A stretch of DNA of 64,000 nucleotides from Deltaproteobacteria bacterium (GTDB lineage: Bacteria; Desulfobacterota_D; UBA1144; Nemesobacterales; JAJCZQ01), in assembly GCA_029262335.1 (NCBI GenBank), contig JAJCZQ010000026.1, positions 24,443 to 88,442 on the forward strand. Reading direction: 5' to 3'. A program made the position numbers and the translations under genes. Of this stretch, positions 55,022 to 58,911 are shown piece after piece. How positions within the stretch are numbered: position 1 is the first letter of the stretch; the number at the start of each line of letters is the position of its first letter. The notes under the pieces were generated by a model, which was not told the origin of the DNA, did not search any database, and worked only from the letters and a program-made list of their open reading frames with translations.

Positions 55022-56056
55022 TCAGGGATAAACGGGCACAGCACCCAGGCCCGTATCTTCTTTAATATCAAACATAATATTCATGTTCTGAACCGCCTGG
55101 CCTGATGCCCCTTTAACTGCATTGTCCAGAACCGACTCAATAACCAGAAAACCGTCCTGGATATCAAAACAGATATCACAGTAATTTGAATTTAATATAT
55201 TCTTAAGCTGAATTACTTCCTGTTTTTCACGAATTCTTACAAACTTTTCATCCCTGTAAAATTCTTCAAAATAATTAAGCAGTTCCTCATAAGATCTCTT
55301 TTCTTTCAGCTCATAATAAACCGTGGTCAGTATCCCTCTGTTTACAGGTACCCTGTGAGTTCTGAAAACAATATTTTCTTTAATTTTGTTGTTGCCGTGA
55401 AAAAATTCTTCAACTTCAATCTTCTGAATATGCATTTCAAACCCATCGCCTGTAATGTTCTGATTGGTTTCGGGAAAATGATATTCCAGCCGCGGCGCCC
55501 TACCTGCACCAGAAATTGGGGCCTTAACATCAGCAACAATACTGCCTGCTTTGATACCGTTTTTTAATAAAGGGGCCAAAGACAACAATACCGTAGTTGC
55601 AAAACAGCCGGGATTTGCAACAAGCCGGGCTGTCTTAATCTGGGCCCTGTTTAATTCGGGCATTCCATATACCGACTCCCCTGCCAGTCCGGGAGCAGGG
55701 TGTTCCCTGTTAAAATAGTTCTTAAACAGCTCAAGGTCCTTAAGCCTTAGATCAGAACTCAGGTCAATAATTTTAATACCCCTGTCATAAAGTTTTTTAA
55801 CAAAGTGAATTGAAGTAAGATTTGGGAGGCAGGAAAAAACAAGATCTACATCTTCCTGCTCATCAAGTTTTGAAACGGATACGCATTCTGTATCTATCCG
55901 GCCGGCAAAGCCGGGAAACACCTCGGAATACTTCATTCCCCTGAATTTTTCAGATGTAAGCCACCTGATATCAACTGAATTATGATTAAGAAGAAGGCTT
56001 ACGAGCTGGCATCCCGTGTACCCTGTTGAACCCAGTATCCCTATATTTATTGACAT
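55022..56056 (-). CDS. argC: N-acetyl-gamma-glutamyl-phosphate reductase (divergent)
   Basis: G.TGYTG, YG.PEL, NPGC, SGAG and DN..KGA.GQAVQN motifs. Confidence 0.85.
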   Translation of the reverse strand: MSINIGILGSTGYTGCQLVSLLLNHNSVDIRWLTSEKFRGMKYSEVFPGFAGRIDTECVSVSKLDEQEDVDLVFSCLPNLTSIHFVKKLYDRGIKIIDLSSDLRLKDLELFKNYFNREHPAPGLAGESVYGMPELNRAQIKTARLVANPGCFATTVLLSLAPLLKNGIKAGSIVADVKAPISGAGRAPRLEYHFPETNQNITGDGFEMHIQKIEVEEFFHGNNKIKENIVFRTHRVPVNRGILTTVYYELKEKRSYEELLNYFEEFYRDEKFVRIREKQEVIQLKNILNSNYCDICFDIQDGFLVIESVLDNAVKGASGQAVQNMNIMFDIKEDTGLGAVPVYP

Positions 56057-56109
56057 GAAATTTGCCTGTAATTACTATATATGTTTAATACTATAAGAAT
56101 CTCGAAATT

Positions 56110-56481
56110 ATGAAAAGAATACAAATCATATTTCTGCTGTTAATTACACTCACTGTGCTTTCGGTGTTATCCGGCCGTGAGGACTCCGGCTATTATTCGG
56201 AATACGATACTAGATTTACATGCAGCCTTCTAAAGTATGATTTTGAACTACTTGATATAACCCAGGAGCTGAAACCTGAAAACAGCCAGAAAGAACTTTC
56301 ACAATATACTTTCCAAAATGTTTTAAATACCAATGACCATCAAAAAACTCTTAAAAAAGTTGCCGGAATTAAGCATGGACTATTTCCCGTAAAACTTTTT
56401 TACTCTGATACACAAAACCAATTTACAGATTTAAACCAAAACGTATTATTTCCTTCCAGAGCACCACCCTGCTACTCCTGA
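56110..56481 (+). CDS. Exported leader protein ending in RAPP (candidate translation-arrest peptide)
   Basis: Signal-like N-terminus and C-terminal FPSRAPPCYS. Its stop lies in a hairpin covering the next SD. Confidence 0.75.
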   Translation: MKRIQIIFLLLITLTVLSVLSGREDSGYYSEYDTRFTCSLLKYDFELLDITQELKPENSQKELSQYTFQNVLNTNDHQKTLKKVAGIKHGLFPVKLFYSDTQNQFTDLNQNVLFPSRAPPCYS

Positions 56482-56508
56482 TTCTTTAATTTTCATTTAA
56501 ATTAGGAG
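56475..56508 (+). promoter_or_regulatory. SD-sequestering hairpin
   Basis: CTCCTGATT (56475-83) pairs with AATTAGGAG (56500-08), which contains the AGGAG SD of the 56517 gene. Confidence 0.65.
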
Positions 56509-56516
56509 GACAGAAC

Positions 56517-57545
56517 ATGTTTTTATTTAAAATAAGGACTACTTTCTTTTTTATAGCTTTATTAATAGCAGGCCCTTCATTTTCAAACGCTATGGAATAC
56601 AGTTTCCGGGCCGATGACCATGCACCCATTGGTGTAATGGGAGAACACACACACCAGAAAGGAGAGCTTATGCTCTCATACAGGTACATGTACATGCAGA
56701 TGAAAGGCATGAGGAATGGTACCAACGGCATAAGCAACCAGGAAGTGCTGGAGCAGTTTTTGGTAACACCGACTGATATGGACATGCAGATGCATATGTT
56801 CGGGGCCATGTACGCAGTGACCAACAGGCTCACACTAATGGGAATGATCCCTTACGTAAAAAAATCAATGAACCACCTTACAAGAAGCGGCGGAAGATTT
56901 AAAACCACTTCTGAAGGGCTGGGTGACATTAAGCTCTCCGGTCTATTTAAAGTCCTTAACTGGGGAAATAACAACAACGTTATCCTTAATTTCGGGCTTA
57001 GTTTCCCAACCGGCTCTATAGATAAAAAAGACGATACCCCTATGGGCCCTAATCAGCCGCTTCCCTATCCAATGCAGCTGGGCTCAGGTACATGGGACCT
57101 TCTTCCCGGTGTGACTTATAACGGCAGGCAGGGCAACATCGACTGGGGCGGCCAGGTACTGGGTGTTGTGAGGCTTGGTGAAAATGACCGTAATTACACA
57201 CTAGGCAACAGGCTCAATGTTACAACATGGACAGCTTATAATATAAACTACTGGCTGAGCGGATCATTCAGGCTTGACTGGGGGTTTTGGGGGAATATTG
57301 ATGGTGCAGACCCTGCACTTAACCCGGAGGTTGTTCCTACTGCTGACCCAGATCTTCAGGGCGGCAACCGCCTTGACGCATTGGTCGGGCTTAACTTTGT
57401 AAACCAGGTCGGCCCTAAATGGCTCCAGGGTCAAAGGCTGGCATTTGAATTTGGTGTTCCGGTATACCAGGACCTAAACGGCCCGCAGCTTGAAACTGAC
57501 TGGATTATACTTTTTGGATGGCAATACACTCTAATCGACAGATAA
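56517..57545 (+). CDS. His/Met-rich outer-membrane beta-barrel (metal-uptake-type transporter candidate)
   Basis: Signal peptide, DHAPIGVMGEHTH, M.M.MHM, G.GD and PY.MQLGSGT.D motifs, terminal aromatic strand. Confidence 0.8.
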   Translation: MFLFKIRTTFFFIALLIAGPSFSNAMEYSFRADDHAPIGVMGEHTHQKGELMLSYRYMYMQMKGMRNGTNGISNQEVLEQFLVTPTDMDMQMHMFGAMYAVTNRLTLMGMIPYVKKSMNHLTRSGGRFKTTSEGLGDIKLSGLFKVLNWGNNNNVILNFGLSFPTGSIDKKDDTPMGPNQPLPYPMQLGSGTWDLLPGVTYNGRQGNIDWGGQVLGVVRLGENDRNYTLGNRLNVTTWTAYNINYWLSGSFRLDWGFWGNIDGADPALNPEVVPTADPDLQGGNRLDALVGLNFVNQVGPKWLQGQRLAFEFGVPVYQDLNGPQLETDWIILFGWQYTLIDR

Positions 57546-57585
57546 ATAATGATACTGCAATAGAGGGAGGAAACTCCCTTTGTTG

Positions 57586-58911
57586 TTAGTTTTCGTTACC
57601 GTTCTTTTCTACTACTGCTACTGAAATTACTTTGGTCAACCATTTTTTGATCTTATCCTGGGAACCGCTGCCAACGATTTTCCTTACCTGGGAAAGTGGA
57701 ATTACGGCTTTACCAGCTGACCTGTGGCCTCCGGCGCTGCCAATTTCATTGAATAACTCTCGCATAAGCCTTCCGGCACTTTTAACATAACCTACATTTC
57801 TTATTGAGATTACAAGATGGGTTTTACTCAGTATTCCAAAAGCAACAGACCACTCTATGCCTTTTACCTGGATGCCAAAATCGGCCATTTTTGGTATCAG
57901 ATATTCTCTTTTTACCCTTCCTACATTTACAAAGAAAATATTTTTTTCAATCCAGTGGTCAGCAAGGGCCTGCCCGAAACATTTTATCTCGGTTGATGGG
58001 ATTTCAGCCCTTTCAATTCTTCTGAGAAGTCCAAGGTTTGCATTAGGATAAAGGAAAGTAAAAGCTTCAATATCGTCCGCATTTGCGTCCCTGTTAAGAA
58101 CTACCGTGTCAGTCCTGATACCATAAAGAAGTGCAGTTGAAAGCCTTTCGGATATCTCCACCTGCGCCGACCTCAGGTAGCTGGTCATTATTGTGGAAGT
58201 TGCACCTTCTTCCGAACTTATATCCTGAAAATCTGCTTCGTATTTGCTAACCTGCGGATGGTGGTCAATCACCGAGTCAACTCTTTCTATCAGGTCACCA
58301 AAATACGGCGGCTGCACATCCACCATTGATATTGAATCATATTCTTTTAAATCTTCGGGAACGAGTTCATGCAGGTCGATATCCAGTATCTCTATCATCG
58401 CCACATTTTCGGGCCTCGAGATTTTCTCGCCAAGGTGGCCTATTACAGCTGTCTGTTTGTTTCTTTTTAATAAAGTCCTTAATGCCAGTGCACTGGCAAT
58501 TGAATCGGGGTCAGGATGGTCATGGAGAAGAATAAGAAGCTTCTTTGACTTTTCATGAGTCTTACGTAGTTCTTCAACCTTTAGCTCCGTGCGTGCAAGC
58601 TTCTCTTCTTTCATTATTTGTGTATCTATGATTTCTTCGAATTTGACAAACCTTACGTATGGCGGCGGGTCAGTGTGTTTATCGCCGTTTGATACAAGTA
58701 TTGGGGTTTGCGGATAGTGTGTTCTCAAATTACTTGAGAGTTTTGTTTTGAAAATGTTTGAATCAACAATAATGAGTGTAAAATTTCCGGTCTGGTTAAG
58801 TGCTTCATCGAGTGAGCTTACCCAAATCACTTCGCCCCTCTTTGAGAAGAAGCCAAGCAGAATTGAATCAAATTCACCAAGGAACAGATATCTTTTTAGA
58901 TTAGCTTCCAT
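57586..58911 (-). CDS. DHH/DHHA1 phosphoesterase with N-terminal receiver-like extension
   Basis: H..PDPD, D, IDHH, TDT and GGH motifs. Confidence 0.88.
   Translation of the reverse strand: MEANLKRYLFLGEFDSILLGFFSKRGEVIWVSSLDEALNQTGNFTLIIVDSNIFKTKLSSNLRTHYPQTPILVSNGDKHTDPPPYVRFVKFEEIIDTQIMKEEKLARTELKVEELRKTHEKSKKLLILLHDHPDPDSIASALALRTLLKRNKQTAVIGHLGEKISRPENVAMIEILDIDLHELVPEDLKEYDSISMVDVQPPYFGDLIERVDSVIDHHPQVSKYEADFQDISSEEGATSTIMTSYLRSAQVEISERLSTALLYGIRTDTVVLNRDANADDIEAFTFLYPNANLGLLRRIERAEIPSTEIKCFGQALADHWIEKNIFFVNVGRVKREYLIPKMADFGIQVKGIEWSVAFGILSKTHLVISIRNVGYVKSAGRLMRELFNEIGSAGGHRSAGKAVIPLSQVRKIVGSGSQDKIKKWLTKVISVAVVEKNGNEN

What the first reader, a model, noticed from the sequence alone, without database searches (positions are those of the whole stretch)
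56110..57545. RAPP arrest-peptide leader controlling a His/Met-rich outer-membrane transporter through an SD-hiding hairpin
Seen: a 123-aa ORF with an N-terminal export signal ends ...FPSRAPPCYS (RAPP at 56458-69). Six nt later CTCCTGATT pairs with AATTAGGAG, burying the SD of the next gene. A ribosome stalled on RAPP would cover the 5' arm and free the SD. Known: RAPP-like motifs stall ribosomes (ApdA, ApdP), SecM and MifM use this hairpin logic, and the CruR/CutF leaders use CxxC plus RAPP for copper control. This leader has no CxxC, only single Cys and scattered His, and the target is a small barrel rather than a TonB receptor or Sec/YidC gene. Inference: a new variant of a metal- or secretion-sensing arrest switch.
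Basis: partly seen in the sequence, partly recalled or inferred. Interest (0 to 1): 0.85.

Follow-up and report, generated by a model that had tools for sequence, protein, structure and literature searches.

The report
Ribosome-stalling leader gating a metal pore
A small exported leader peptide that ends in the ribosome-stalling motif Arg-Ala-Pro-Pro sits just upstream of a methionine/histidine-lined outer-membrane pore gene whose ribosome-binding site is hidden in a hairpin, so it looks like a cysteine-free relative of the known copper-sensing leader peptides.

Summary
ORF 56110-56481 (123 aa) ends PSRAPPCYS*. A 9-bp hairpin (56475-56483 with 56500-56508) buries the AGGAGG of the next gene.

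The leader is a real, conserved family:
- 21 of 22 close homologs keep RAPP and one has RASP, always three residues before the stop.
- dN/dS is 0.15-0.36.
- RAPP occurs in only two open frames of the 2.09-Mb genome, both small exported leaders in front of outer-membrane proteins.
- The hairpin and the 35-36 nt spacer are kept in 6 of 6 loci with DNA.

The target is a 12-stranded COG4313/FapF-like barrel with about 15 near-invariant Met/His residues. In this phylum, 20 of the 30 barrel loci retrieved carry an upstream R[AS]PP leader, most of them with a CxCxxC motif.

This is most likely a CutF/CruR-type arrest switch: stalling uncovers the ribosome-binding site. The hairpin logic is already published for CutF, and RAPP leaders before diverse genes were described in 2025. 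What is new is a leader family with no Pfam match that has a Y..RF.C motif at a fixed distance from RAPP in place of CxxC, and the pore as target. Stalling, its polarity and the cue are untested.

The parts
56050..56078 (+). Promoter-like site TTGACA-17 nt-TACTAT in the 53-nt gap between divergent argC and the leader
   Evidence: 10 of 12 consensus matches; the number of such sites in the region equals the shuffle expectation, so it is weak alone. Both hexamers are kept in 5 of the 6 aligned loci printed; L025 has an altered -10 and an 18-nt spacer.
56099..56135 (+). 37-nt stretch invariant at the nucleotide level (11 nt before the ATG plus the first 26 nt of the leader ORF); no Shine-Dalgarno in front of the leader
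   Evidence: identical in 6 of 6 loci, synonymous sites included, while dS over the ORF is 0.7-1.9. Unexplained; see Noticed in passing.
56110..56481 (+). Leader ORF, 123 aa, exported regulatory (arrest) peptide
   Evidence: 21 close homologs plus more distant ones down to 22% identity, length 122-123 aa, dN/dS 0.15-0.36, no Pfam or NCBIfam match.
56110..56172 (+). Signal peptide or signal anchor (residues 1-21), with MKRIQIIFL invariant in the close family
   Evidence: invariant M1-L9; helix 2-21, pLDDT about 80, the only confident part of the model.
56191..56244 (+). Conserved mature-part motif YYSEYDTRFTCSLLKYDF (residues 28-45); candidate sensor, 78 residues upstream of R117
   Evidence: Y32, F36 and C38 are invariant; S30, R35, L41 and D44 are at least 90% conserved down to 22% identity. 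This segment has the lowest dN (0.00-0.14).
56458..56469 (+). [quoted passage not shown]
   Evidence: Its codons vary synonymously among loci. Stall geometry is taken from PMC10951233 and PMC12992588 (passages read).
56475..56483 (+). 5' arm of the hairpin (anti-SD CUCCUGAUU): last base of Tyr122, the Ser123 codon, the stop codon and two more bases
56500..56508 (+). 3' arm of the hairpin (AAUUAGGAG), overlapping the barrel's Shine-Dalgarno AGGAGG (56504-56509)
56517..57545 (+). Outer-membrane barrel, 342 aa, PF13557 (COG4313-type), with a Met/His-rich N-terminal third
   Evidence: 27.7 bits against a cut-off of 22; over 4,800 homologs; conserved Met/His; pLDDT 86.7; best folds FapF 5o67 and the COG4313 channel 4rl8.
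57557..57596 (+). Intrinsic-terminator-like hairpin plus T-rich tail closing the two-gene unit
   Evidence: the next gene (a DHH-family protein, 57586-58911) is on the opposite strand.

Best explanation
The 123-codon ORF is a cis-acting regulatory leader of the CutF/CruR kind, not a conventional protein gene. Its product is inserted into, or exported through, the Sec translocon by its N-terminal signal.

When the ribosome reaches R117-A118-P119 with the P120 codon in the A site, peptide-bond formation is blocked, as in the RAPP arrests of ApdA, ApdP and CruR. The P-site codon starts at 56464, so the stalled ribosome covers mRNA to about 56478-56479. That is the first four to five bases of the anti-SD arm and includes all three G-C pairs of the 9-bp helix. 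The remaining A-U and G.U pairs cannot hold, the AGGAGG at 56504-56509 is freed, and the barrel gene is translated.

When the stall is short or is released, the ribosome terminates three codons later, the hairpin re-forms and the barrel is not made. Release could come from pulling by translocation, or from folding or ligand binding of the conserved Y..RF.C segment. That segment lies a fixed 78 residues from the stall site, far enough to have emerged from the ribosome tunnel.

The barrel is probably a TonB-independent channel for a soft metal, copper being the best guess. The switch would then tune outer-membrane metal permeability.

Shown: the ORF, motif, hairpin, spacing, synteny and selection. 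Inferred: stalling, SD unmasking, the direction of regulation and the identity of the cue.
For: (1) Motif. RAPP is present in 21 of 22 close homologs and RASP in one, always followed by 3 residues and the stop. R[AS]PP is kept in relatives down to 22% identity: R117, P119 and P120 are invariant in 22 of 22 aligned sequences, and the motif is followed by 3 residues and the stop in 21 of those 22.
(2) The RAPP codons differ synonymously between loci (AGA/AGG, GCA/GCT, CCA/CCC/CCT/CCG). Leader dN/dS is 0.15-0.36. Selection therefore acts on the peptide.
(3) RAPP occurs once among all six-frame ORFs of at least 100 aa in the genome (718,636 aa). The only other RAPP found near the C-terminus of an ORF of at least 40 aa is a 99-aa exported leader with CPAC on contig C17.
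(4) Hairpin. It is in the MFE fold in 6 of 6 loci, at -9.0 to -12.2 kcal/mol, with a spacer of 35-36 nt and a variable loop. 96.7% of cells are paired, against 37-67% when the partner is slid by 1-3 columns. It is the third most stable of 30 fully SD-sequestering folds among 239 AGGAG-led genes.
(5) Independent parallels. In L037 and in C17 the Ala-Pro-Pro codons themselves pair with the next gene's SD.
(6) Module conservation. 20 of the 30 barrel loci retrieved (the search matched 41 of 120 phylum genomes) have an upstream same-strand ORF ending in R[AS]PP. The seven aligned have an invariant C..CxCxxC, with 43 residues between the last Cys and the Arg, close to the 45 in CruR (PMC9426467, passages).
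(7) Published mechanisms. [quoted passage not shown] CruR stalls in vitro (PMC12992588). CutF melts an SD-shielding stem-loop during Sec-dependent export (PMC9973294). RSPP is partially arrest-competent (PMC12992588).
(8) The mature leader is modelled as disordered (pLDDT below 50 for 82 of 123 residues). This fits a nascent-chain sensor better than a folded protein.
(9) Barrel. M41, H44, H46, M52, M58, M60, M62, M88, M92, H93, M94, M98, M110, M118, H120 and M186 are conserved at 90-100% in 121 sequences. One homolog carries a NosL domain (P0129). The genome encodes two heme-copper oxidase subunit I genes.
Against: No experiment or RNA data exist for this locus.

Covariation is thin. 7 of 10 helix pairs never vary, only one pair shows a change on both sides, and 161 of 500 shuffles reach the observed score. 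The 3' arm would be conserved anyway as an SD, and the 5' arm is partly coding.

SD-sequestering folds are not rare in this genome (30 of 239).

A terminating ribosome at the stop codon inside the 5' arm also opens the hairpin, so some coupling would occur without any arrest.

The leader has no recognisable metal-binding motif. It has no detectable homology to the Cys-rich sister leaders beyond the last 12 residues (hhalign probability 1.6%), and none to DUF2946.

10 of 30 barrel loci have no such leader, including the closest other genus in the same family (L004).

RAPP alone is reported to be insufficient for arrest without a suitable upstream sequence (PMC12992588, discussion passage).

The metal assignment rests on residue chemistry and analogy only.
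Confidence: 0.7

Rival explanations
1. Plain translational coupling. The hairpin is opened by any ribosome that finishes the leader, so the barrel is simply co-translated with it. There is no regulated arrest, and RAPP only slows termination or is kept for another reason.
For: The stop codon lies inside the 5' arm, so terminating ribosomes must melt the helix. The spacer is short, 35-36 nt. SD-sequestering folds are fairly common in this genome (30 of 239).
Against: It does not explain several observations. The most strongly avoided tetrapeptide class is invariant here and unique in the genome (avoidance from PMC12992588). Its distance to the stop is fixed. The distance to the conserved N-terminal motif is also fixed, with length 122-123 aa in 20 of 22 aligned sequences. 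Unrelated leaders before the same barrel also end in R[AS]PP.
Confidence: 0.12
2. CruR-type control. The stalled ribosome mainly protects the transcript from Rho-dependent termination (or from decay) between the two genes, rather than unmasking the SD.
For: CruR works this way (PMC9426467, passages). The genome encodes Rho. The Cys-rich sister leaders have long spacers of 124-219 nt, as CruR does.
Against: In this family the spacer is only 35-36 nt and is almost filled by the hairpin, which leaves little room for a Rho loading site. The anti-SD/SD pairing is the conserved feature. CutF, with a short spacer, uses SD unmasking (PMC9973294).
Confidence: 0.1
3. The 123-aa product is a stable periplasmic or membrane-anchored partner of the barrel, for example a metal-handling or plug protein. 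RAPP would then be a structural or binding motif.
For: The peptide is under purifying selection. It has a conserved mature segment with Tyr, Asp, Glu and one Cys. The gene pair is syntenic.
Against: The model is disordered outside the signal helix. The middle 60 residues evolve fast (dN/dS about 0.23-0.70 where computable) while the length is fixed. The conserved C-terminal piece is exactly an arrest motif, and it is shared with unrelated leaders. CutF is degraded after export and CruR peptides were not detected by proteomics (PMC9973294 and PMC9426467, passages).
Confidence: 0.08

Closest known systems
CutF of Rhodobacter capsulatus (cutFOG; DUF2946-related 'CutF-like' proteins), PMC9973294 and bioRxiv 10.1101/2025.02.05.636593
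   Same: A small ORF with a Sec signal, a proline-containing stalling motif at the C-terminus and a short spacer. A stem-loop shields the SD of the next gene and is melted when the co-translationally exported nascent chain stalls. It acts in cis only.
   Different: CutF has a CxxxC copper site and a PPP-type motif that needs EF-P, and it controls a periplasmic multicopper oxidase. This leader has RAPP and no Cys pair or His cluster. It shows no match to Pfam PF11162, and it controls an outer-membrane barrel.
CruR (Bp2923) of Bordetella pertussis, Pfam DUF2946/PF11162, PMC9426467; arrest shown in vitro in PMC12992588
   Same: [quoted passage not shown] It has a conserved spacing between a sensor motif and RAPP, is the first gene of an operon, and has an outer-membrane transporter as its target.
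   Different: CruR senses copper through CXXC 45 residues from RAPP. It acts through Rho-dependent termination in a 162-bp spacer, independently of its signal peptide, and it controls a TonB-dependent transporter. Here there is a single invariant Cys within Y..RF.C, 78 residues from RAPP. The spacer is 35 nt with an anti-SD hairpin, and the target is a 12-stranded TonB-independent barrel.
RAPP/RGPP arrest peptides ApdA, ApdP and the Streptomyces lividans set (PMC10951233, PMC10987492, PMC12992588); SecM and MifM
   Same: A C-terminal R-A-P-P, an N-terminal localisation signal, a small size, a position directly upstream of the regulated gene, and proteome-wide avoidance of the motif.
   Different: Those peptides monitor Sec/YidC or precede other genes. 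None of the passages I read names a COG4313/PF13557 barrel as the downstream gene. The figures and supplements that list downstream classes could not be seen.
COG4313 outer-membrane channels (Pput2725, PDB 4RL8; PMC4493636, abstract in search listing only) and FapF
   Same: A Pfam PF13557 match and a 12-stranded barrel fold (TM-score normalised to target 0.72-0.73).
   Different: Sequence identity to those structures is 12-15%, and no PDB sequence hit was found. COG4313 channels are linked to hydrophobic substrates. This subfamily has a near-invariant Met/His set, which points to a metal.

Membership tests
DUF2946 / CruR-CutF family (Pfam PF11162) | Significant match to the PF11162 profile | tested here: not met
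   No Pfam hit for the leader at E up to 10. PF11162 was not found anywhere in the genome at E up to 1. The ESM Atlas gives a DUF2946/CzcI cluster only as the nearest named cluster (score 0.93, 107 shared features), which is a lead and nothing more.
DUF2946 / CruR-CutF family (Pfam PF11162) | Cys-pair metal-binding motif (CXXC or CxxxC) in the mature part | tested here: not met
   The only invariant Cys is C38; there is no second conserved Cys and no His cluster.
DUF2946 / CruR-CutF family (Pfam PF11162) | C-terminal RAPP or proline-rich stalling motif a few residues before the stop | tested here: met
   RAPP + 3 residues + stop in 21 of 22 close homologs, and RASP in one. R[AS]PP is kept in distant relatives. 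This is the same position as in CruR (PMC9426467).
DUF2946 / CruR-CutF family (Pfam PF11162) | N-terminal Sec signal and first position in an operon with a metal-homeostasis gene | tested here: inconclusive
   A signal-like N-terminus is present and the ORF is the first gene of a two-gene unit. That the barrel handles a metal is inferred from its conserved Met/His residues only.
DUF2946 / CruR-CutF family (Pfam PF11162) | Conserved spacing between the sensor motif and the arrest motif | tested here: met
   C38 to R117 is 78 residues, and family length is 122-123 aa in 20 of 22 aligned members although the linker sequence is not conserved. The value differs from the 45 residues in CruR.
RAPP-type regulatory arrest peptides (ApdA/ApdP class) | Ribosome arrest at R-A-P | P demonstrated (toeprint, peptidyl-tRNA) | not testable with these tools
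   No RNA run is listed for this stretch. It needs in vitro translation.
RAPP-type regulatory arrest peptides (ApdA/ApdP class) | Conserved R-A-P-P near the C-terminus of a small protein with a localisation signal, directly upstream of the regulated gene | tested here: met
RAPP-type regulatory arrest peptides (ApdA/ApdP class) | mRNA structure that hides the downstream SD and lies within reach of the stalled ribosome | tested here: met
   The helix 56475-56483/56500-56508 starts 11 nt after the first base of the P-site codon. It is kept in 6 of 6 loci.
COG4313 / Phenol_MetA_deg outer-membrane channels (PF13557) | Profile match above the gathering score and a 12-stranded barrel fold | tested here: met
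   27.7 bits against a cut-off of 22. AlphaFold2 pLDDT is 86.7. Foldseek finds 4rl8_C at E = 1e-12 and FapF at E = 3.7e-16.

The most novel reading that the evidence does not exclude
The leader is a new kind of sensor module for RAPP arrest switches. It has no Cys pair or His cluster. Instead, an invariant Tyr..Arg-Phe.Cys segment is held exactly 78 residues from the stall site, so that it has already emerged from the ribosome tunnel, possibly through the translocon, when the ribosome stalls. It would report a cue other than the classical thiol-bound copper, such as a harder metal, the redox state of the single Cys, or the state of export or the outer membrane.

Its target would define a very widespread (over 4,800 homologs, 52-60% identical among the listed hits named from several phyla), uncharacterised family of TonB-independent, Met/His-lined outer-membrane metal channels.
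Probability: 0.3. Interest if true: 0.75.

Novelty: new variant of a known kind. Interest (0 to 1): 0.55.

Why it matters
How Gram-negative bacteria let ionic copper and similar metals across the outer membrane is still poorly known. The described routes are mostly TonB-dependent receptors and general porins.

This locus ties a highly conserved barrel family to metal homeostasis. The family has more than 4,800 homologs and a near-invariant set of about 15 Met/His residues. The barrel sits under the same class of nascent-chain switch that controls known copper genes.

The locus also shows that the RAPP arrest module can be combined with a sensor segment that has none of the Cys/His motifs used so far to recognise such leaders. 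Motif-based surveys would therefore miss it.

The fixed 78-residue ruler, the 35-nt spacer and a hairpin that starts 11 nt from the P site make a compact system. It could be tested directly in a cell-free translation assay.

Tried and rejected
- Homology of the leader to the Cys-rich sister leaders: hhalign aligns only the last 12 residues, at probability 1.6%. I therefore do not claim common descent.
- Pfam and NCBIfam on the leader and on seven other leaders gave nothing meaningful.
- Rfam on 55900-57700 at E up to 1 gave no match.
- PDB sequence search with the barrel gave no hit at E up to 1.
- RNA evidence: no RNA holder is listed for this stretch.
- The genome-contig scan with the leader profile found only one truncated copy. 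The phylum-wide genome search found the family only in the window's own genus, in 2 of 120 genomes. DNA for hairpin analysis is therefore limited to 6 loci, of which 5 are distinct and L023 and L024 are nearly identical.
- Plasmid contexts of barrel homologs (Ruegeria, next to ccm/DsbD genes; a distant Methylosinus barrel next to feoB) gave no leader and no decisive metal assignment.
- A second promoter-like site inside the leader (56422-56449) was not pursued, because the number of such sites equals the shuffle expectation.
- Literature searches returned no paper that links a PF13557/COG4313 barrel to RAPP leaders or to copper. These are word searches of an open-access library. The figures and supplements of PMC9973294 (Fig. 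6B, File S1) and PMC12992588 (Fig. 4, Appendix) list downstream gene classes and could not be seen.
Full report
**What is in the sequence.**
On the + strand, ORF 56110-56481 encodes 123 aa ending FPSRAPPCYS*. The N-terminus (MKR followed by 17 hydrophobic residues) looks like a Sec signal. In an AlphaFold2 model built on 22 sequences, helix 2-21 is the only confident element and 82 of 123 residues have pLDDT below 50.

The next gene starts at 56517 and is preceded by AGGAGG at 56504-56509. RNA folding of 56440-56540 puts CUCCUGAUU (56475-56483) in a 9-bp helix with AAUUAGGAG (56500-56508), in both the MFE and the centroid structures. The 5' arm therefore begins five bases after RAPP, not six. 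It consists of the last base of Tyr122, the Ser123 codon, the stop codon and two further bases.

A promoter-like site lies at 56050-56078, in the 53-nt gap to the divergent argC gene. A terminator-like hairpin at 57557-57586 follows the second gene. The unit is therefore a two-gene operon. It is flanked by an acyl-CoA ligase-like ORF and argC on one side and by a DHH-family gene on the other.

**Is it more than chance?**
The hairpin by itself is only moderately unusual. The 101-nt fold has z = -1.6. In this genome, 30 of 239 genes led by AGGAG have all five SD bases paired with upstream sequence in a 52-nt MFE fold, and this locus is the third most stable of those 30.

The motif is a different matter. 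Among all six-frame ORFs of at least 100 aa in the 2.09-Mb genome (718,636 aa, GC 38.5%), RAPP occurs once, in this leader. The only other RAPP found near the C-terminus of an ORF of at least 40 aa is a 99-aa exported leader on contig C17.

**The leader is a conserved, translated family.**
- A search of 5.8 billion proteins found 21 homologs, 44-96% identical and 122-123 aa long.
- In their alignment the N-terminus MKRIQIIFL, a segment YSEY.TRF.C..YD and the C-terminus P.R-A-P-P-x-x-S are invariant or nearly so. 21 of 22 sequences have RAPP and one has RASP. In all 22 the motif is followed by three residues and the stop.
- A profile search of 1.84 billion representatives gave 15 hits. I fetched ten of them. 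Nine keep R[AS]PP; P0150 (89 aa) lacks the C-terminal part. Eight of the nine end three residues after the motif, and P0144 carries eight residues after it.
- In an alignment reaching down to 22% identity, M1, Y32, F36, C38, R117, P119 and P120 are invariant, and 20 of 22 sequences are 122-123 aa long.
- The distance from the Y..RF.C segment to the arrest motif is thus fixed at 78 residues, while the linker between them is not conserved.
- RSPP is reported as partially arrest-competent and as avoided in proteomes (PMC12992588, passages read).
- For the five distinct loci with DNA, pairwise dN/dS of the leader is 0.15-0.36 with dS of 0.7-1.9. dN is lowest in residues 25-48.
- The RAPP codons vary synonymously between loci.

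**Hairpin conservation.**
DNA was obtainable for six loci: the window's own and five metagenome contigs with leaders 57-60% identical. Two of the five are nearly identical to each other. All six show the same gene order and a spacer of 35-36 nt. All six also have an MFE hairpin of -9.0 to -12.2 kcal/mol that joins the last codon plus the stop to the SD, with a variable loop.

On the alignment, 96.7% of cells are paired, against 37-67% when the 3' partner is slid by 1-3 columns. Against this, 7 of 10 pairs never vary, only one pair shows a change on both sides, and 161 of 500 column shuffles reach the observed score. Covariation support is therefore weak, and the case rests on retention at saturated synonymous divergence. 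In one locus the stop codon is UAA instead of UGA, which turns a G.U pair into A-U.

**Geometry.**
[quoted passage not shown] The same was found for CruR in PMC12992588 (passages). Here the P-site codon starts at 56464.

A ribosome covers about 15-16 nt from that base, the usual toeprint distance, which I state from general knowledge. That reaches 56478-56479. It covers the first four to five bases of the 5' arm and all three G-C pairs (C56475, C56477 and C56478 with G56508, G56506 and G56505). The remaining pairs are A-U or G.U. The SD begins about 25 nt beyond the leading edge, which leaves room for an initiating subunit.

A terminating ribosome also covers the arm, so some arrest-independent coupling is expected.

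**The target.**
- The 342-aa product matches Pfam PF13557 (27.7 bits against a cut-off of 22).
- It has its own signal peptide.
- It models confidently (pLDDT 86.7) as a barrel whose best structural matches are FapF (5o67) and the COG4313 channel Pput2725 (4rl8), at 12-15% identity.
- There are more than 4,800 homologs. The listed hits that carry organism names, 52-60% identical, come from Gammaproteobacteria, Cyanobacteria, Planctomycetes-type and Opitutales records. Most are named only 'transporter'.
- Across 121 sequences, M41, H44, H46, M52, M58, M60, M62, M88, M92, H93, M94, M98, M110, M118, H120 and M186 are 90-100% conserved.
- One homolog carries a NosL domain (P0129).
- A distant (30%) barrel on a Methylosinus plasmid is followed by feoB.
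- The genome has two heme-copper oxidase subunit I genes.

I read this barrel as a TonB-independent channel for a soft metal, with copper the best guess. This is an inference.

**The module in relatives.**
A search of the 120 genomes of the phylum found the barrel in 41 of them at E up to 1e-40 and returned 30 loci. In 20 of the 30 an upstream ORF on the same strand ends in R[AS]PP within 15 residues of its stop. Ten have none: L004, L008, L011, L012 and L043-L048.

The seven of these leaders that I aligned form a different family, with an invariant C..CxCxxC. They have 43 residues between the last Cys and the Arg, close to the 45 residues between CXXC and RAPP in CruR (PMC9426467). The 17 loci other than the window, L009 and L037 have long spacers of 124-219 nt. 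The other twelve were only listed with their Cys counts and C-terminal tails.

A third type (L037) has a 47-nt spacer, and its Ala-Pro-Pro codons pair directly with the barrel's SD. Profile-profile comparison of the window's family with the Cys-rich family aligns only the last 12 residues, at probability 1.6%. None of the leaders matches Pfam DUF2946.

The window's family was found in only 2 of the 120 genomes, both in its own genus. The one named record that holds a copy, and a truncated one, is titled a Candidatus Dadabacteria MAG.

Leader-tail to SD complementarity reaches z of -2 or lower in 9 of 20 loci. This is partly an automatic consequence of Pro and Ser codons being anti-SD-like.

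**Comparison with what is known.**
- CutF of Rhodobacter capsulatus is a Sec-exported leader whose stalling melts a stem-loop that shields the SD of cutO. CutF-like proteins are numerous: 5,334 in 29 clusters, some with only His motifs, and most have spacers under 100 nt (PMC9973294; abstract, passages and sections 10-12 read). I read only the abstract of the 2025 preprint 10.1101/2025.02.05.636593.
- CruR has RAPP three residues from its end and controls a TonB-dependent transporter through Rho (PMC9426467, passages).
- Fujiwara et al. 2025 showed that RAPP and RGPP are excluded from proteomes. They are enriched at the C-termini of small exported proteins that lie upstream of diverse genes, many of them metal-related (PMC12992588; abstract, section 13 and passages).

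The principle is therefore known. Three things differ here: the sensor part, the target and the lineage. The sensor has no Cys pair or His cluster, a Y..RF.C segment at a fixed 78 residues, and no Pfam match.

My four literature searches found nothing that links PF13557/COG4313 barrels to RAPP leaders or to copper. The figures and supplements that list downstream gene classes were not visible to me.

That is an unchecked lead, but it suggests the pairing occurs outside this phylum.

**Verdict.**

The rivals are plain translational coupling (0.12), Rho or decay protection as the main output (0.10), and a stable partner protein (0.08). Rho is present in the genome.

The direction of control and the cue remain open. 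For an uptake channel, CruR-like polarity would make sense: stall and expression when the metal is scarce, release when it is plentiful. Nothing here tests that.

I class the finding as a new variant of a known kind, with interest 0.55.

Noticed in passing
Own genome, contig C17:82680-82979 (locus L049:1381-1680), outside the window: This is a second RAPP leader in the same genome: 99 aa, with a signal peptide, a CPAC motif (C46, C49) 44 residues before RAPP, and an ending of SSRAPPKA*. It lies in a cluster of FUR-family regulator, ZIP transporter, leader, 460-aa outer-membrane barrel, ZnuA, ABC ATPase and ABC-3 permease. Its Ala-Pro-Pro codons pair with the SD of the barrel gene in a -26.7 kcal/mol fold. 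It looks like a zinc-type counterpart of CruR/CutF. Earlier scan notes e1-5136013 and e1-5112549 describe similar loci elsewhere.
   Followed up: partly
window 56099-56135: Eleven bases before the leader ATG and its first 26 coding bases are identical in all six loci, synonymous sites included, although dS over the ORF is 0.7-1.9. The leader has no Shine-Dalgarno. The first nine residues are invariant in 22 of 22 close homologs. This points to a nucleotide-level element, such as an operator, an SD-independent initiation signal or an RNA pairing site. No Rfam match was found and no clear palindrome was seen.
   Followed up: partly
L020/L021 (452-523 onward) and L027 (3001-3072 onward): Three records carry a deletion allele. 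They are a same-genus genome (L020), what looks like the same contig in the named collection (L021), and one metagenome contig (L027). In all three the leader reads normally for 23 codons and then runs out of frame. In the same-genus genome it runs into the last 59 codons of the barrel, so most of both genes is missing.
   Followed up: partly
L002, L003, L005-L007, L009, L010, L031-L042 (upstream of barrel homologs): Sister genera carry 115-148 aa leaders ending in (L/I)P(I/T)RSPP.. or QRAPPISS. The seven aligned have an invariant C..CxCxxC motif 43 residues before the Arg; the others have 3-7 Cys and were only listed. None matches Pfam DUF2946. Except for L009 (59 nt), spacers are 124-219 nt. 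In L040 and L041 the leader tail shows extended complementarity to the distant SD region (duplex -19.1 and -17.8 kcal/mol, z of -3.35 and -3.0).
   Followed up: partly
L037:1007-1443: This is a third leader type in front of a 63%-identical barrel. It is 129 aa, has three Cys and ends SNRAPPAFC*. The spacer is 47 nt, and the codons GCU CCU CCG of Ala-Pro-Pro form the anti-SD for CGGAGGA.
   Followed up: partly
Barrel homologs P0022-P0141; plasmid loci L028-L030: The barrel family is very large and strongly conserved across phyla, yet it is annotated only as 'transporter'. One member carries a NosL domain (P0129). Several have His-rich N- or C-terminal tails (L008, L002, L010). On Ruegeria plasmids the gene sits beside cytochrome c maturation and DsbD genes, with no leader. 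A distant Methylosinus relative is followed by feoB.
   Followed up: partly
window 56422-56449: A promoter-like site (TTTACA-16 nt-TATTAT, 10 of 12 matches) lies inside the 3' part of the leader, just upstream of RAPP. If active, it would give a transcript carrying the hairpin and the barrel without leader translation. The number of such sites in the region equals the shuffle expectation.
   Followed up: no
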